Part shown: positions 27,870 through 32,855 of the stretch, one piece after another
Layout of the letters: every line of letters starts with the position of its first letter
Position numbering within the stretch: the stretch's first letter is position 1
IMG/VR virus record: IMGVR_UViG_3300028840_003497
Coordinates: 112,268-176,267 of that record
Length of the DNA: 64,000 nt
From: a virus
Direction: 5' to 3' (one strand)
Program-made: the position numbers and the translations under genes
Notes under the pieces: generated by a model
What the model saw: the letters and a program-made list of their open reading frames with translations, nothing else
Databases searched by the model: none
Told to the model about the DNA's origin: nothing

Positions 27870-29327
27870 ATGAAAAACACTGACGAACAACAGGCCATCA
27901 TCAACTCAACACCGTCCACTGGGGGATCGCTTCTAGTCACGGCCTTCGCCGGTACCGGGAAGACCTTCACCCTCCAGAAGTACGCGGAGGAGCGTCCTGC
28001 GGACAAGATTCTATACGCCGCGTTCAATAAAGCGATCCAACTGGAAGCCGAGCGGAAAATGCCGATGAACGTGACCAGCAGGACAACGCACTCACTGGCC
28101 TATCGCGCGTGCGCGCTACCCTATCAGAAGGCCGGGCTCCTGCGCGGATACATCCCGCTATGGGGAGTTGCCAAAATACTGGAGACCAACATCGTGATCG
28201 CAAACTTCGCGCTCTCCGTAGTCAATAACTTCATCGCATCGCCAGATCCGAAGATCACAAGCGCCCACATCGGGCAGGAGATCCACGATTACTACGAACA
28301 GGCTGATCACATGCCACCATTTGTAGAGATGGCGAGAATGATCTGGGACGACATGAAGAGCCTTGGCCAGCGAAGTCTCCCGATGACACACGACGGGTAC
28401 CTGAAACTCTTCCAGCTCTCCGGCCCCGATCTACGCTTCGACTACATCCTGCTCGACGAGGCCCAGGACACCACGCCATGCGTCTGGGATATTATGACCA
28501 ACCAGAGCTGCCGGAAAATAGTCGTGGGCGATGAACACCAAGCGATCTACTCCTGGCGAGGTGCCACTGATGCCTTGAAACTCGTCGAAGATGCCGAACA
28601 CCTTTATCTCACCCAGAGCTTTCGATTCGGACCCGAGATCGCAGCACTGGCCACCACCATGCTGCAGCGATTCAGAGGAGAGAAAAACAAACTCCTTGGA
28701 TTGGAGTCGATCCCTACAAAGATCCATACAGGAGGCCGCCCGGAGAAAAGAACCATGATCTGCCGGGGCAACATGCAAATATTCCGATCCTCCGCCACCG
28801 AGTGCCAATTTGGAGAGAAGAGTCTGGGTTTCGTAGGAGGAGACCACCGTAATTACCGCTTCCAGACCGTACTCGACGCTTACCACGTCTTCGATGATCA
28901 GCCCGAAATGGCCAAGGATGCACTCATCAAATCCTTCGAGACATTCGAAGATCTCCTGGAGTTTGCTGGCAAAACCAAGAACAATGAATTAGAAGGAGCC
29001 TGCCAACTGGTAGAAGAGTACGGTGCAAGGATCCCCATCATATTCCACGAAGTAAAGAATAGAGACGTTGGTGCTAAGTTTGGAGACCTAGCGTTTGCCA
29101 CCGGCCACAAGGCCAAGGGGATGGAATTCCCGGTCGTCGAAATTGGATCAGACTTCAGCGCCCGGATCGAGGCCCACCAGAAGAACCCGAAAGAGGGCAT
29201 CATGAATTCCCACGAGATGAACCTGCTATACGTAGCCATCACCAGGGCCACAGAGCACCTATACCTCTCACCCAGTATTGTGGACTTCATTCAGCACGGA
29301 ACCATCAAAAAGGAGGGACAGCTATGA
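27870..29327 (+). CDS. superfamily 1 (UvrD/Rep-like) DNA helicase
   Basis: AFAGTGKT, AFNK, LLDEAQD, VGD.HQ.IY.WRGA, LTQSFRFG, T.HKAKG.EF, LLYVAITRA. Confidence 0.95.
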   Translation: MKNTDEQQAIINSTPSTGGSLLVTAFAGTGKTFTLQKYAEERPADKILYAAFNKAIQLEAERKMPMNVTSRTTHSLAYRACALPYQKAGLLRGYIPLWGVAKILETNIVIANFALSVVNNFIASPDPKITSAHIGQEIHDYYEQADHMPPFVEMARMIWDDMKSLGQRSLPMTHDGYLKLFQLSGPDLRFDYILLDEAQDTTPCVWDIMTNQSCRKIVVGDEHQAIYSWRGATDALKLVEDAEHLYLTQSFRFGPEIAALATTMLQRFRGEKNKLLGLESIPTKIHTGGRPEKRTMICRGNMQIFRSSATECQFGEKSLGFVGGDHRNYRFQTVLDAYHVFDDQPEMAKDALIKSFETFEDLLEFAGKTKNNELEGACQLVEEYGARIPIIFHEVKNRDVGAKFGDLAFATGHKAKGMEFPVVEIGSDFSARIEAHQKNPKEGIMNSHEMNLLYVAITRATEHLYLSPSIVDFIQHGTIKKEGQL

Positions 29328-29617
29328 GTGCAGACAACTGGGCGCTTTGCCCACGGTGCAAAGAGAGGGACATCGAGAGACTCCGCACTGCGGTCGAGAT
29401 GGTCAAGAAATCGTACGGCAAAGTCCCCGAGGAAGAGTACATGCAGATGAAGGAGGATCTCGCCAAGGCAGATCCGGGAAACGCCACCGACCCCACACTG
29501 CGCGAGGACTACGAAATCGGAATCGGGAAGGACGGAATGTTCTCGATAACCTTCCGGGCAAGCTGCAAATGCGGCTTCAGGTTCACGTTCTCGTTCAAGG
29601 AGAAGGTGTTAACATGA
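29324..29617 (+). CDS. small zinc-binding protein
   Basis: MSADNWALCPRC ... TLREDYEIG ... CKC; ATGA overlap with helicase. Confidence 0.7.
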   Translation: MSADNWALCPRCKERDIERLRTAVEMVKKSYGKVPEEEYMQMKEDLAKADPGNATDPTLREDYEIGIGKDGMFSITFRASCKCGFRFTFSFKEKVLT

Positions 29618-29696
29618 AAACTTGATATGATTCGCCTTTAGAGCGATCATGTCTTTAGATGCGGCGCAAGATGCGTCACTGTTGAAAGGATGCAAG

Positions 29697-30380
29697 ATGT
29701 ACAGAGTAAATGTAGAGTTGAACGGTTGCACGGATGTTGGAGGCAGCGACCTCCTGATGCATAACGACAATTTGACGTGGCGGGATGAAATGGATTTGTG
29801 GTTACAAGAACCCTTAAACAAGAATTCCAGCAGGGCCGGGGATGATCGTTCTCCAGCATGGCGCTGGCTCGGTTACTGCTACCACGACGGCGAAGTCGTA
29901 GGAATCCCAAGCGACAACCTGATGACCTGTATGCGGGGCGGAGCAACAATGATCAACGTCCCAGGCAAAGGCAAGAAGACATATAAAGCTCAGAGCCAGA
30001 GCGGACTCTTGGTTAACGAGATTCTGTGGCCAATCACAGTCAATGACGGCCAGATCATCAAATGGGAAGATATTGCTTCCTTGGCAAATGAAGAGGACTT
30101 TAATAAACACGTTGCCCGCGCCAACGAGCTAGGGATCGAATTGTTCGTCAAATCGGTGAGGATCGGGCAGTCCAAGAACATTCGAGTGCGCCCGAGGTTC
30201 AAAAACTGGAAAGCGAAAGGATCAATAACGGTCCTGGACGACACCATCACAATCGATCTATTGAAACGATTTCTGGAATGTTCTGGAATGTTATGCGGAC
30301 TCTGCGATTGGAGACCGTCATCGCCGAGATCACCTGGACCGTTCGGAAAATTCGTCGCCACGGTTACGAAGGCTAAATAG
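29697..30380 (+). CDS. Cas7/RAMP-like protein adjacent to the GGY-NN array
   Basis: N-terminal strand plus LLMHN; GIPSDNLMTCMR (compare RAMP IPGSSLKG.LR); RVRPRF..W; G-rich C-terminal loop G..CGLCDWRP....GPFGKF. Confidence 0.65.
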   Translation: MYRVNVELNGCTDVGGSDLLMHNDNLTWRDEMDLWLQEPLNKNSSRAGDDRSPAWRWLGYCYHDGEVVGIPSDNLMTCMRGGATMINVPGKGKKTYKAQSQSGLLVNEILWPITVNDGQIIKWEDIASLANEEDFNKHVARANELGIELFVKSVRIGQSKNIRVRPRFKNWKAKGSITVLDDTITIDLLKRFLECSGMLCGLCDWRPSSPRSPGPFGKFVATVTKAK

Positions 30381-30390
30381 GTAGACGCAT

Positions 30391-30706
30391 GGATCTGGGT
30401 AAGGCTAGGCCAGGCTTGGCGTGGCATGGCAAGGCGAGGATCGTGGCAAGGCGAGGCATGGCGCGGCAAGGCGAGGCGCGGCGAGGAACGTGGCAAGGCG
30501 AGGCATGGCAAGGCGGGGCTGGGCAAGGCGAGGATCGTGGTAAGGCTAGGCGTGGCTTGGCAAGGCTGGGCATGGCGAGGAACAGGGTAAGGTGTGGCAA
30601 GGCAAGGCGGGGCAAGGCATGGCGAGGAACATGGCAAGGCAAGGCAAGGCGCGGCATGGATCGTGGTAAGGCAAGGCTAGGCGTGGCCGGGCAAGGCGAG
30701 GAACGT
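30391..30706 (+). repeat. non-coding array of 7 units: GGAWCNN delimiter plus (GGY-NN)x5-8; probable guide-like ncRNA
   Basis: Delimiters at 30391, 30438, 30485, 30532, 30579, 30626, 30658, 30700; 52 pentamers; five units are exactly 47 nt. Confidence 0.9.
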
Positions 30707-30748
30707 GGAAAACATCATGGAGTACAACAGTATCAACGGAGGAGTACA

Positions 30749-31234
30749 ATGAACGAAAACAAGAAAGATGGCCTGTTTTTCGGAGGAGTCCCCACCGATG
30801 GAGACATCCGTCTCCTGGAAAATGAGTACGGAATTCCTGAAATCGGCAAGATTATACCCTACGAGGAGGTGGCTGCCGTCATCAAGTATGACAAGGATTC
30901 GTCACGGTTTAAAACAGTGACACAGCGCTGGCGAAAGAAGATCGAGCGCGACCACAACGTCATCATTGGCACCGAACGCGGGATCGGTTTTGTCGCACTC
31001 GACAACGCCTCTCGTGTTGATCTGGGATCCGACAAATTCAAATACGGCATGAAATCTGTTCGACGCGCGAACAAGGTCGTCTCTTCAACCGACCACTCAG
31101 ATCTTACTGATGATCAAGTTCAAGTCGCCCACCACGTACGACACGTCACCGCCGCACTGGTCGGAGCGGCCAGAATGGAGTCGAAAAAACTTCGGGCTCA
31201 ACTTCCCATGCCTGTCCAGCAGAACAGAAAGTAG
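30749..31234 (+). CDS. hypothetical protein downstream of array (possible nucleic-acid-binding partner)
   Basis: GGAGGAG RBS then MNENKK; 161 aa, basic and helical. Confidence 0.8.
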   Translation: MNENKKDGLFFGGVPTDGDIRLLENEYGIPEIGKIIPYEEVAAVIKYDKDSSRFKTVTQRWRKKIERDHNVIIGTERGIGFVALDNASRVDLGSDKFKYGMKSVRRANKVVSSTDHSDLTDDQVQVAHHVRHVTAALVGAARMESKKLRAQLPMPVQQNRK

Positions 31235-32035: not shown

Positions 32036-32122
32036 TGGGCCGGGAAGGATTCGAACCTCCGAAGGGACTAGCCCGCCGGATTTACAATCCGGTGCCTTTG
32101 AACCGCTTGGCGATACCGACCC
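32036..32122 (-). tRNA. tRNA-Tyr(GTA)
   Basis: Anticodon arm CCGGA-TTGTAAA-TCCGG; long variable arm; GTTCGAATC. Confidence 0.9.
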
Positions 32123-32123
32123 A

Positions 32124-32215
32124 TGGTGCGCGGGGCGGGATTCGAACCCGCCCTGTCTCTGAAGTGTTACCCCGGGGCCTGAACCCGGTGCCTTTACCAG
32201 CTTGGCTACCCGCGC
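32124..32215 (-). tRNA. tRNA-Leu(CAG), CCA encoded
   Basis: CCGGG-TTCAGGC-CCCGG; long variable region. Confidence 0.85.
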
Positions 32216-32216
32216 A

Positions 32217-32290
32217 TGGTGATCCCGACTGGAGTCGACCCAGTGTCTCCGGCTCTTCAAGCCAGCGCTAAACCCCTCAGCTACAAGACC
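32217..32290 (-). tRNA. tRNA-Phe(GAA), CCA encoded, atypical T-loop
   Basis: CTGGC-TTGAAGA-GCCGG; T-loop GTCGACT; several G-U acceptor pairs. Confidence 0.75.
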
Positions 32291-32291
32291 A

Positions 32292-32374
32292 TGGACGGAT
32301 CGAAGCACATCTGCGCATTTTACATTGCCGTCGAACTGAATCGTCGGTTGCTGCCGTGTGAAATCCGATCCGTC
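32292..32374 (-). ncRNA. unidentified rod-like hairpin RNA within the tRNA array
   Basis: 9-bp terminal stem GACGGATCG/CGATCCGTC, 3' end reads CCA; no cloverleaf. Confidence 0.4.
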
Positions 32375-32377
32375 TTG

Positions 32378-32451
32378 TGCGCGAGCTGGGAGTCGAACCC
32401 AGAACCACAGACCCCTCAAGCCTGCTCCTCTTCCAGTTGGGATACTCGCGC
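32378..32451 (-). tRNA. tRNA-Leu(GAG), short variable loop
   Basis: CAGGC-TTGAGGG-GTCTG; A73. Confidence 0.85.
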
Positions 32452-32457
32452 ATATAT

Positions 32458-32530
32458 TACGACTGAGTGGATTCGAACCACCAACTTTCGGTTCTTGAAA
32501 CCGACGCCTCTTCCGTTGGGCCACAGTCGC
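32458..32530 (-). tRNA. tRNA-Leu(CAA), short variable loop
   Basis: TCGGT-TTCAAGA-ACCGA; A73. Confidence 0.85.
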
Positions 32531-32531
32531 T

Positions 32532-32607
32532 TGGTGCGCCCCCTCGGATTCGAACCGAGCCTGAACCGGGCTTAAACCGGATCCCTCTTCCACTGGGGTA
32601 GGGGCGC
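32532..32607 (-). tRNA. tRNA-Leu(TAA), short variable loop, CCA encoded
   Basis: CCGG-TTTAAGC-CCGG; A73. Confidence 0.85.
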
Positions 32608-32613
32608 ATATAG

Positions 32614-32689
32614 CAAGTGCGGAAGGATTCGAACCTTCAACCTTTGGATTTGGAATCCAACGCTCTGACCAAATTGGAGCCACGCACCC
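32614..32689 (-). tRNA. tRNA-Trp(CCA)
   Basis: TTGGA-TTCCAAA-TCCAA; G73. Confidence 0.9.
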
Positions 32690-32694
32690 ATAAG

Positions 32695-32778
32695 CGGAGG
32701 TAGAAAGATTCGAACTTTCAAGCCAGTTTCCCGACCACAGTTTAGCAAACTGCTGCGTTACCATTACGCTATACCTCC
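32695..32778 (-). tRNA. tRNA-Ser(GCT)
   Basis: GCAGT-TTGCTAA-ACTGT; long variable arm; G73. Confidence 0.9.
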
Positions 32779-32782
32779 CTTG

Positions 32783-32855
32783 AGTCTCGGGCCGGGTTCG
32801 AACCGGCGTCCTTCTTGGGTTGCAACCAAGTGCCTCGCCTCTTGGCTACCGAGAC
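32783..32855 (-). tRNA. tRNA-Cys(GCA)
   Basis: CTTGG-TTGCAAC-CCAAG; U73. Confidence 0.9.

What the first reader, a model, noticed from the sequence alone, without database searches (positions are those of the whole stretch)
30398..30699. Array dinucleotides read like codon positions 1-2, with the wobble base skipped
Adding one free base after each NN gives protein-like strings: U2 [KN][DE][IM]A[KN][DE]A[DE], U5 [KN]V[KN][KN]G[KN][IM][DE], U7 [KN][KN]YVR[KN][DE], U4 [KN]YV[FL][KN][CW][IM][DE]. The dinucleotide set is dominated by purine-first pairs (AA, GA, AT, GT, GC, GG), as codon starts are, and is much more A-rich than this genome. Inference: targets would be NN.NN.NN stretches in coding DNA of an AT-richer competitor, immune to synonymous escape. 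The fixed first AA and last GA may be structural. I found no matching target in this window by eye.
Basis: inference. Interest (0 to 1): 0.8.

Follow-up and report, generated by a model that had tools for sequence, protein, structure and literature searches.

The report
Phage VIPR guide-RNA array

Summary
Window 30391-30708 parses without indels into 7 units, each a GGAWCNN delimiter followed by 8 (or 5, or 7) GGY-NN pentamers.

The gene 10 nt upstream (29649-30380) is a Vipr protein. It matches PDB 36pp "SUSP1 Vipr protein" by profile at E = 2e-16, has a Cas7-like fold, and conserves all five GG-contact residues. The gene downstream (30749-31234) is a conserved accessory gene. The locus is therefore a VIPR system (bioRxiv 10.64898/2026.04.26.720920, .720927, 2026.10.15.759431).

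Those papers show that NN dinucleotides pair with DNA under a 1-nt skip rule and that the skipped base usually falls on the codon wobble position.

My own tests:
- NN composition fits codon positions 1-2, sense strand, better than 11 other phase or gap models. It fits AT-rich codon tables best, but much of that signal is simply A-richness.
- Across 385 guides from 120 loci, the wobble-skip model wins strongly.
- No natural target was identified. Exact gap-1 hits in IMG/VR were no more frequent than for permuted guides.

The compact architecture (8-repeat guides, 7-nt delimiters, no structured tail) differs from the characterised type II. This scan has already found VIPR in at least 57 other genomes. 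It is a new member of a known kind.

The parts
29649..30380 (+). vipr gene, encoding a Cas7-like RAMP protein of 243 aa. The true start may be the ATG at 29697, giving 227 aa, because homologues align from about residue 28.
   Evidence: A profile of 59 homologues matches PDB 36pp 'SUSP1 Vipr protein' at E = 2e-16. BLASTP against the Felixounavirus wV8 Vipr gives E = 2e-16 at 25% identity. The AF2 model has pLDDT 92.7, and Foldseek's top hits are Csm3 and type VII Cas7. The SUSP1 GG-contact residues H17, R138, D177, W178 and R179 align to H38, R181, D220, W221 and R222. There are 735 homologues in 1.8 billion representative proteins.
30391..30708 (+). vrRNA array of 7 guide units delimited by GGAWCNN, with 52 GGY-NN pentamers, starting 10 nt after the vipr stop codon.
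   Evidence: Parsed. Tandem Repeats Finder reports periods of 5, 47 and 94. blastn finds similar arrays beside Vipr homologues in Mycobacterium phage BobaPhett and Cyanophage Cy-LDV1. More than 120 IMG/VR contigs hold 8 or more consecutive GGCNN repeats.
30391..30437 (+). Unit 1. NN = AA TA CA TT GT AT AA GA.
30438..30484 (+). Unit 2. NN = AA GA AT GC AA GA GC GA.
30485..30531 (+). Unit 3. NN = AA GA AT AA GG TG AA GA.
30532..30578 (+). Unit 4. NN = AA TA GT TT AA TG AT GA.
30579..30625 (+). Unit 5. NN = AA GT AA AA GG AA AT GA.
30626..30657 (+). Unit 6, short with 5 repeats. NN = AA AA AA GC AT.
30658..30708 (+). Unit 7 with 7 repeats, NN = AA AA TA GT CG AA GA, plus the closing delimiter GGAACGTGG.
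30749..31234 (+). vap-like accessory gene of 161 aa, with its own GGAGGAG ribosome-binding site.
   Evidence: It is homologous to the gene next to vipr in relatives: L123 at E = 1e-25 and L124 at E = 6e-21. It matches phrog_5926. The AF2 model has pLDDT 83. The N-terminal ~80 residues give weak winged-helix matches (PurR N-terminal domain, OmpR-type DNA-binding domains; E 0.02-0.1), and a long helical hairpin follows. BLAST finds no similarity to the Felixounavirus vap1.
27870..29617 (+). Upstream neighbours in the same plus-strand island: a UvrD-like SF1 helicase (27870-29327) and a 97-aa CxxC protein (29324-29617). They are context only and are probably not part of the system.
   Evidence: Pfam and PHROGs matches are. 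The genes upstream of vipr in six relatives are unrelated to these two and mostly unrelated to each other.

Best explanation
The array is the guide-RNA (vrRNA) array of a phage VIPR system. The proposed mechanism runs as follows.

1. It is transcribed on the plus strand, probably together with vipr.
2. Each unit of about 47 nt supplies one guide.
3. Vipr protomers bind one GGY-NN pentamer each and polymerise into a helical filament. They bury the GGY bases and present the NN pairs.
4. The filament pairs with one strand of double-stranded DNA, with one target base flipped out after every two paired bases. Eight NN therefore read 16 bases across a 23-bp site.
5. Binding represses transcription of a competing mobile element. 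Because the skipped base coincides with codon position 3, synonymous mutations do not free the target.

Shown here: Vipr membership, array anatomy, the conserved accessory gene, absence of self-targets, and NN composition that best fits codon positions 1-2 on the sense strand of AT-rich genes.

Taken from the preprints on type II systems: filament formation, the 1-nt skip and repression.

Inferred: (a) this rule applies to this distant clade. (b) The GGA of each delimiter, which has a purine where the Y pocket excludes purines, together with the 2-nt register slip, ends one filament and starts the next. (c) The targets are genes of an AT-richer competitor that was not identified.
For: - Vipr identity and fold.
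- GGY-NN array 10 nt after the vipr stop.
- Same clade, same architecture: L468 and L469 have vipr then an array with GGAWCNN delimiters, and in L469 a following 141-aa gene (only 17% identical to this vap). L123, L124 and L127 have vipr, vap, then an array with GGAAC delimiters.
- The vap is conserved.
- Published mechanism: 1-nt skip rule, wobble alignment, programmable repression; structures.
- Composition of this array: the wobble-skip sense model is best of 12, and AT-rich codon tables fit best.
- Family-wide composition: in 385 guides (4033 NN) from 120 loci, 'gap 1, skip = codon position 3' beats 'skip = position 1' by 166 nats and the cycling (gap 0, 2 or 3) models by about 240 nats. 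It wins 226 of 385 guides. It exceeds within-guide base shuffles at z = 14.8.
- No self-target in the 176-kb genome, as the preprint reports for its own systems.
Against: - No natural target was found.
- This Vipr is only about 25% identical to the characterised type II protein. It has a 7-residue insertion in the G-loop region, which is the low-pLDDT stretch around residues 221-230.
- The guides are short (8 NN, against the 9-16 stated in the preprint) and lack the 3' tail and pseudoknot.
- Within this one array the codon-phase signal beyond plain base composition is weak (p = 0.03 and 0.09).
- A first AA in all 7 units and a last GA in 6 of 7 is odd for freely programmable positions.
Confidence: 0.87

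Rival explanations
1. It is a VIPR array, but the A-rich, purine-first NN set reflects RNA or filament constraints, or descent of the units by duplication, and not the codon structure of targets. Candidate constraints are avoiding C that would pair with the GG scaffold, and fixed terminal AA/GA handles. On this view the codon-like look of this particular array is incidental.
For: With NN base composition held fixed, the codon-phase score is only marginal (p = 0.03; margin p = 0.09). C makes up 6% of NN bases. All seven units start with AA and six end with GA. U2 and U3 share their first three NN, and U1 and U4 share their first two, which suggests duplication.
Against: Other VIPR arrays use C-rich NN freely, so C-avoidance is not a general constraint. 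Family-wide, the position-specific codon 1-2 signal far exceeds composition-preserving shuffles (z = 14.8). The published natural targets lie in frame.
Confidence: 0.1
2. It is a VIPR-like system whose distant Vipr clade uses a different reading rule, such as another skip length, RNA targets or non-coding targets. In that case the wobble reading would not apply here.
For: The protein is about 25% identical to the tested one and has a G-loop insertion. The delimiter architecture and guide length differ from type II. The exact gap-1 search showed no enrichment.
Against: The GG-contact residues are conserved. The preprint reports GGY/NN or related repeats in all seven types and 1-nt-skip hits for types III and V. 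The composition of this array and of 385 diverse guides prefers a constant codon phase with the wobble base skipped over the cycling phases that gaps 0, 2 or 3 would give.
Confidence: 0.06
3. The array is translated as a Gly/Arg/Lys-rich N-terminal extension of the downstream protein, through ORF 30389-31234.
For: One frame is free of stop codons from ATG 30389 through the array and continues in frame into the vap gene.
Against: Conservation is at nucleotide level with periods of 5 and 47 nt, neither a multiple of 3, so the 'repeat' changes frame. The vap has its own ribosome-binding site and ATG at 30749, and homologues start there. In relatives the array lies after the vap or is not in frame. 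With only 7 stop triplets in the array, an open frame arises by chance in roughly 1 in 6 such arrays.
Confidence: 0.02
4. The array is a protein-binding scaffold without guide function, for example iterons of a replication origin, or a sponge RNA for a ring protein in the manner of TRAP binding to (G/U)AG-NN repeats.
For: The regular 5-nt spacing of a fixed triplet resembles the binding sites of multimeric RNA-binding proteins. The locus sits among replication genes.
Against: The adjacent protein is a Vipr, for which guide function is shown experimentally. NN varies while GGY is fixed, and NN carries codon-phase information family-wide, which a plain scaffold does not need.
Confidence: 0.02

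Closest known systems
VIPR systems (Vipr + vrRNA + vap), notably type II of Escherichia phage SUSP1 and the Pseudomonas fulva prophage (bioRxiv 10.64898/2026.04.26.720920, 10.64898/2026.04.26.720927, 10.64898/2026.10.15.759431)
   Same: A small Cas7-like Vipr with the G-loop motif G-x-x-D-W-R-P and conserved GG-contact residues. Tandem GGY-NN pentamers with fixed GGY and variable NN. An adjacent small accessory gene. Phage-borne. No self-targets. NN composition consistent with the 1-nt skip and wobble rule.
   Different: - The Vipr is only about 25% identical and has a 7-aa insertion after WRP.
- The scaffold is GGC-dominated, whereas Felixounavirus uses GGT.
- Guides have 8 repeats (also 5 and 7), against 9-16.
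- Guides are packed head to tail with 7-nt GGAWCNN delimiters. The type II guides each carry a ~40-nt tail with a pseudoknot and are spaced apart.
- The array lies between vipr and vap.
- BLAST does not relate this vap to vap1.
- I could not determine which of the seven published types this clade belongs to, because the supplementary tables are not held.
Staggered and ribozyme-interspersed vrRNA arrays of other VIPR types (same preprint, figs S18 and S19; legends read only)
   Same: Several guides are packed into one compact array without long tails.
   Different: Staggered arrays overlap by 1 nt. That matches the GGCA|GGC arrays I saw in mycobacteriophages and many IMG/VR contigs, not this array. 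No hammerhead or any other Rfam family lies in the locus.
Class 1 CRISPR-Cas Cas7 backbones (Csm3, Cmr4, type VII Cas7)
   Same: RRM, thumb and G-loop fold. One protomer per fixed-length RNA segment. Periodic base flipping. The best structural matches to the model come from this group.
   Different: There are no CRISPR repeats or spacers, and no Cas1, Cas2, Cas5, Cas6 or large subunit. The period is 5 nt with three guide bases hidden, whereas Cas7 backbones use 6 nt with one base flipped. The guide information is noncontiguous.

Membership tests
VIPR system | Vipr protein: a stand-alone RAMP (RRM core, thumb, glycine-rich loop) homologous to published Vipr | tested here: met
   Profile match to PDB 36pp 'SUSP1 Vipr protein' at E = 2e-16. 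BLASTP to wV8 Vipr at E = 2e-16. AF2 pLDDT 92.7 with Csm3 and type VII Cas7 as the best folds.
VIPR system | Residues that hold the two G bases of the GGY motif (SUSP1 H17, R138, D177, W178, R179) | tested here: met
   They align to H38, R181, D220, W221 and R222. These columns are 90-100% conserved in 59 homologues, except W221, which is not listed among them. K33, the contact for the skipped base, aligns to Q53 in a weakly aligned region, so that position is unclear.
VIPR system | vrRNA locus: tandem pentamers with conserved GGY and variable NN, next to vipr and on the same strand | tested here: met
   52 of 52 pentamers are GG[C/T]NN, using 11 different NN. The array starts 10 nt after the vipr stop codon.
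VIPR system | Adjacent vipr-accessory (vap) gene | tested here: met
   The 161-aa gene is homologous to the gene next to vipr in L123, L124 and L127. Its winged-helix-like N-terminal domain is only weakly supported.
VIPR system | The array is expressed and processed into vrRNAs that bind Vipr | not testable with these tools
   Only DNA metagenome runs hold this sequence. The contigs laid on it give no information about RNA.
VIPR system | Target recognition by the 1-nt skip rule, with the skipped base on the codon wobble position | tested here: inconclusive
   Composition favours it and favours it strongly family-wide. Exact gap-1 hits for U1 and U4 are no more numerous than for permuted guides: 52 and 49 clusters against 48 and 59. 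Long guides of relatives found nothing convincing.
VIPR system | No self-targeting | tested here: met
   The best matches in the 176-kb genome equal the permuted controls at gaps 0-3.
VIPR type II (SUSP1 clade) | Each vrRNA ends in a conserved ~40-nt 3' tail with a pseudoknot, and the accessory gene is vap1 | tested here: not met
   Delimiters are 7 nt and there is no tail. wV8 shows the type II layout for comparison. This vap shows no similarity to the wV8 vap. The locus is therefore a VIPR member but not type II.
CRISPR-Cas | Repeat-spacer array with contiguous spacers, plus adaptation or other cas genes | tested here: not met
   The only repeats have periods of 5 and 47 nt. The neighbouring genes are a helicase, a CxxC protein and the vap.

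The most novel reading that the evidence does not exclude
This clade may represent a VIPR array design that the preprints do not describe. Guides are minimal (8 repeats, as few as 5) and are strung head to tail. They are separated only by a 7-nt GGAWCNN delimiter, whose purine at the Y position and 2-nt register slip would themselves end one Vipr filament and start the next, so no tail, ribozyme or overlap is needed. One guide (U1) spells, in frame with all seven wobble positions varying, the conserved KYHFVIND motif of the nozzle (tail tubular B) gene in 20 T7-like marine phage contigs. That could be a real competitor target.
Probability: 0.25. Interest if true: 0.45.

Novelty: new member of a known kind. 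Interest (0 to 1): 0.3.

Why it matters
The mechanism itself is no longer news. The three 2026 preprints cover the code, the structures and the biology.

What this locus adds:
- It is a distant, environmental example, from a 176-kb myovirus found in marine sediment and seawater metagenomes.
- It has an unusually compact array, which bears on how vrRNA ends are defined and how short a guide can be.
- The target-free composition test used here recovers the skip-the-wobble rule from guide sequences alone (385 guides). That gives independent support across diverse VIPR clades and a cheap way to test the rule where targets are unknown.

Tried and rejected
- **Self-target search.** I searched the whole genome at gaps 0-3 on both strands, with permuted guides as controls. 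Nothing exceeded the controls.
- **Exact gap-1 scans of IMG/VR.** U1 gave 110 hits in 52 sequence clusters and U4 gave 68 hits in 49. Two permutations of U1 gave 76 hits in 48 clusters and 80 in 59. There is no enrichment. With 16 specified bases, roughly 50 independent chance hits are expected, so the test has little power and does not refute the rule.
- **Codon phase of those hits.** It tracks composition. Background hits prefer NN on codon positions 2-3, and U4 does so too.
- **The two largest U1 clusters.** They have 20 and 12 contigs, both in frame and sense. They fall in the T7-like nozzle gene and in a DUF2201 gene. They exceed the largest control clusters (7 and 6), but these gene families are very abundant in marine viromes, and no other guide matches nearby. 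I do not claim them as targets.
- **Long guides of same-clade relatives.** 12-NN, 11-NN and 10-NN patterns from L124 and L123 gave 0 hits in viral, genome and metagenome contigs. One pattern gave 3 unrelated hits at about the chance level.
- **First search for relatives.** The search for related loci with the single protein found no relatives.
- **RNA evidence.** No RNA holder is listed. Contigs from four metagenome runs show the same phage with an identical array, plus many other GGYNN arrays, but no informative variants.
- **Ideas considered before the PDB hit and dropped.** These were TIGR-Tas (from memory: 36-nt tigRNAs and a Nop-domain protein; neither fits), TRAP-like ring-protein sites, G-quadruplex runs and origin iterons.
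- **The helicase as a system component.** The neighbours upstream of vipr are not conserved in relatives.
- **RNA fold of the array.** The z-score is -3.3, but the frequency in the ensemble is 0.0003 and the pairing is diffuse G-C/G-U pairing between repeats. I do not read this as a defined structure.

Full report
**What is in the sequence**

Window 30391-30708 (plus strand) parses without any indel into seven units. Each unit starts with a 7-nt delimiter GGA[A/T]CNN and continues with GG[C/T]NN pentamers. Five units have eight pentamers (47 nt), one has five (32 nt) and one has seven (42 nt). A last delimiter closes the array. All seven units begin with AA and six end with GA.

The array starts 10 nt after the stop codon of a 243-aa gene (29649-30380). 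It ends 40 nt before a 161-aa gene that has its own Shine-Dalgarno sequence (30749-31234). These genes, together with a UvrD-like helicase and a small CxxC protein, form the only plus-strand island in a window otherwise transcribed on the minus strand.

The genome is a single 176-kb viral contig. It carries myovirus baseplate genes and eight tRNAs. No close relative exists among isolated phages. It recurs nearly unchanged in marine sediment and seawater metagenomes from several studies.

**What it is**

blastn with the locus matched only the array, and the matches were similar arrays in Mycobacterium phages (Cheoctovirus) and in Cyanophage Cy-LDV1. In both, a homologue of the 243-aa protein lies next to the array.

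The arrays there show many delimiter styles. The protein has 735 homologues among 1.8 billion representative proteins, typically about 220 aa long.

A profile of 59 homologues matched one solved structure, PDB 36pp "SUSP1 Vipr protein", at E = 2e-16. The AlphaFold model is confident (pLDDT 92.7), and its best structural neighbours are Cas7 backbone subunits such as Csm3 and type VII Cas7.

The literature search then found three 2026 preprints that describe VIPR (Viral Interference Programmable Repeat) systems. A small Vipr RAMP protein polymerises on a vrRNA made of alternating GGY and NN segments and silences DNA targets. The SUSP1 residues that hold the two guanines are H17, R138, D177, W178 and R179. 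They align to H38, R181, D220, W221 and R222 here.

The downstream 161-aa gene is homologous to the gene next to vipr in relatives. Its model shows a weakly supported winged-helix-like N-terminal domain followed by a helical hairpin. This fits the preprint's statement that several vap genes encode DNA-binding proteins. The locus is therefore a VIPR system of vipr, vrRNA array and vap.

On that view the targets are NN.NN.NN stretches in the coding DNA of a competitor, and they are immune to synonymous escape. This is the published mechanism.

The discovery preprint tested 0-3 skipped bases. Only the 1-nt skip gave good natural matches, competitor-resistant binding and GFP repression. The inferred targets lay mostly in coding sequence, with the skipped base "overwhelmingly" at the wobble position. 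The authors draw the same conclusion about synonymous escape.

The structural preprint shows the thumb displacing all three GGY bases of the guide but only one base of the target. The third preprint shows a guide that matches the codon periodicity of a satellite's recombinase gene.

**Tests on this array**

- *Self-targets.* No site in the 176-kb genome matches any unit better than permuted units do, at any gap from 0 to 3. This agrees with the preprint's finding of no self-targeting.
- *Composition against the phage's own codon tables.* The model "constant codon phase, NN = positions 1-2, sense strand" is the best of twelve. It scores +17.0 nats over genome dinucleotide background for all 52 NN and +9.3 nats for the 39 internal NN. 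It leads the next model by 5.6 and 3.9 nats.
- *Fit across GC content.* Phase 1-2 is the best phase in every GC bin of codon tables I could build. The fit improves toward AT-rich tables (20-40% GC), by 2.5-6 nats for internal NN compared with the phage's own table.
- *A caveat on composition.* Thirty of 39 internal NN start with a purine (p = 0.001). However, when the NN base composition is held fixed and the bases are shuffled, the score is exceeded in 3% of shuffles and the margin in 9%. In this one array, most of the signal is A-richness and C-poverty.
- *Direct target search in IMG/VR.* Exact gap-1 patterns for U1 and U4 gave 110 and 68 hits, which form 52 and 49 independent sequence clusters. 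Two permutations of U1 gave 76 and 80 hits in 48 and 59 clusters. There is no enrichment.
- *The largest U1 clusters.* They hold 20 and 12 contigs, and both are in frame and sense, with the wobble bases varying. One lies in the nozzle gene of T7-like marine phages (peptide KYHFVIND). The other lies in a DUF2201 gene. No other guide matches nearby, and these families are very abundant in the database. I record them as candidates only.

**Tests across the family**

I took 385 uninterrupted GGY-NN runs of six or more units (4033 NN) from 120 fetched loci. Each was scored with codon tables from its own contig, and orientation was marginalised.

- "Gap 1, skipped base = codon position 3" beats "skip = position 1" by 166 nats and "skip = position 2" by 738 nats.
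- It beats the phase-cycling models expected for gaps 0, 2 or 3 by about 240 nats.
- It wins 226 of 385 guides and 80 of 120 loci.
- It exceeds within-guide base shuffles at z = 14.8, and its margin is 166 against 67 ± 17 for the shuffles.

This recovers the published rule from guide sequences alone, without any targets.

**How this locus differs from the characterised systems**

In Felixounavirus (type II; wV8 examined here) each vrRNA is a run of GGT-NN units. It is followed by a tail of about 40 nt, and the vrRNAs are spaced apart. In this phage the guides are GGC-dominated and have eight repeats or fewer. They abut one another with only GGAWCNN between them.

The closest Vipr relatives are 50-55% identical and share this style. 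L468 and L469 have vipr followed directly by an array with GGATC/GGAAC delimiters and units of 8-9 repeats. In L469 a 141-aa gene follows the array, but it aligns poorly with this vap (17% identity). L123, L124 and L127 have vipr, vap and then an array with GGAAC delimiters and units of up to 20 repeats.

In these relatives GA often precedes the delimiter, but the first NN varies. The invariant first AA in this phage is therefore local and not a clade rule. Rfam finds no ribozyme in the locus.

My inference is that the delimiter itself ends each filament. It has a purine where the published Y pocket excludes purines, and it shifts the register by 2 nt.

The helicase and the CxxC protein are not conserved neighbours of vipr in relatives. 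I do not count them as part of the system.

I could not assign one of the seven published types, because the supplementary data are not held.

**Verdict**

The locus is a new, distant member of the VIPR family with a compact array design, and its targets remain unknown. This scan has noted VIPR-type loci in at least 57 other genomes.

Noticed in passing
window 30389-31234: One reading frame has no stop codon from ATG 30389 through the whole array and runs in frame into the vap gene. The other two frames hold 2 and 5 stops. With only 7 stop triplets in the array this is roughly a 1-in-6 chance event, and rarer if the frame must also match vap. Another note of this scan reports an open frame through a VIPR array elsewhere.
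   Followed up: partly
L001 4002-4253 (Mycobacterium phage BobaPhett) and about 20 other Cheoctovirus phages: Cluster-F-type mycobacteriophages carry a GGC-NN array delimited by GGCA|GGC one-base slips. It lies directly upstream of a Vipr homologue (gp52), between a Rha-like regulator and the excisionase. The annotated 54-aa 'gp51' lies inside the array and is probably not a gene.
   Followed up: partly
L469 2605-2742: In this relative, a called 45-aa ORF upstream of vipr has a G/R/K-rich translation typical of a GGY-NN array. A second array probably flanks vipr on the other side.
   Followed up: no
L131, L152, L169 and 17 other IMG/VR loci: Guide U1 matches 16 of 16 NN positions in frame in the nozzle (tail tubular B, PF25675) gene of T7-like phage contigs at 38-41% GC, at the conserved peptide KYHFVINDEYYF. 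The skipped bases vary among contigs. This cannot be distinguished from chance given the permuted controls.
   Followed up: partly
window 30391-30699: The units are related to one another. U2 and U3 share their first three NN. U1 and U4 share AA TA, and TT at the fourth position. U3 and U5 share AA GG at positions 4-5. U7 contains the TA GT of U4 shifted by one repeat. This suggests growth by unit duplication, or guides against variant alleles of one site.
   Followed up: no
window 30392-30652 in metagenome runs X3, X5, X6, X7: Dozens of other short contigs from the same sediment and seawater metagenomes align to the array at 80-90% identity and then run on into unlike sequence. Many different GGY-NN arrays therefore coexist in these samples.
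   Followed up: no
window 32038-32855 (minus strand): A cluster of eight tRNA genes lies just downstream of the VIPR island.
   Followed up: no
window 30438-30708: Delimiters alternate between GGATCGT and GGAACGT/GGAACAG/GGAACAT, which gives the 94-nt super-period seen by Tandem Repeats Finder. The GGATC forms contain a GATC site.
   Followed up: no
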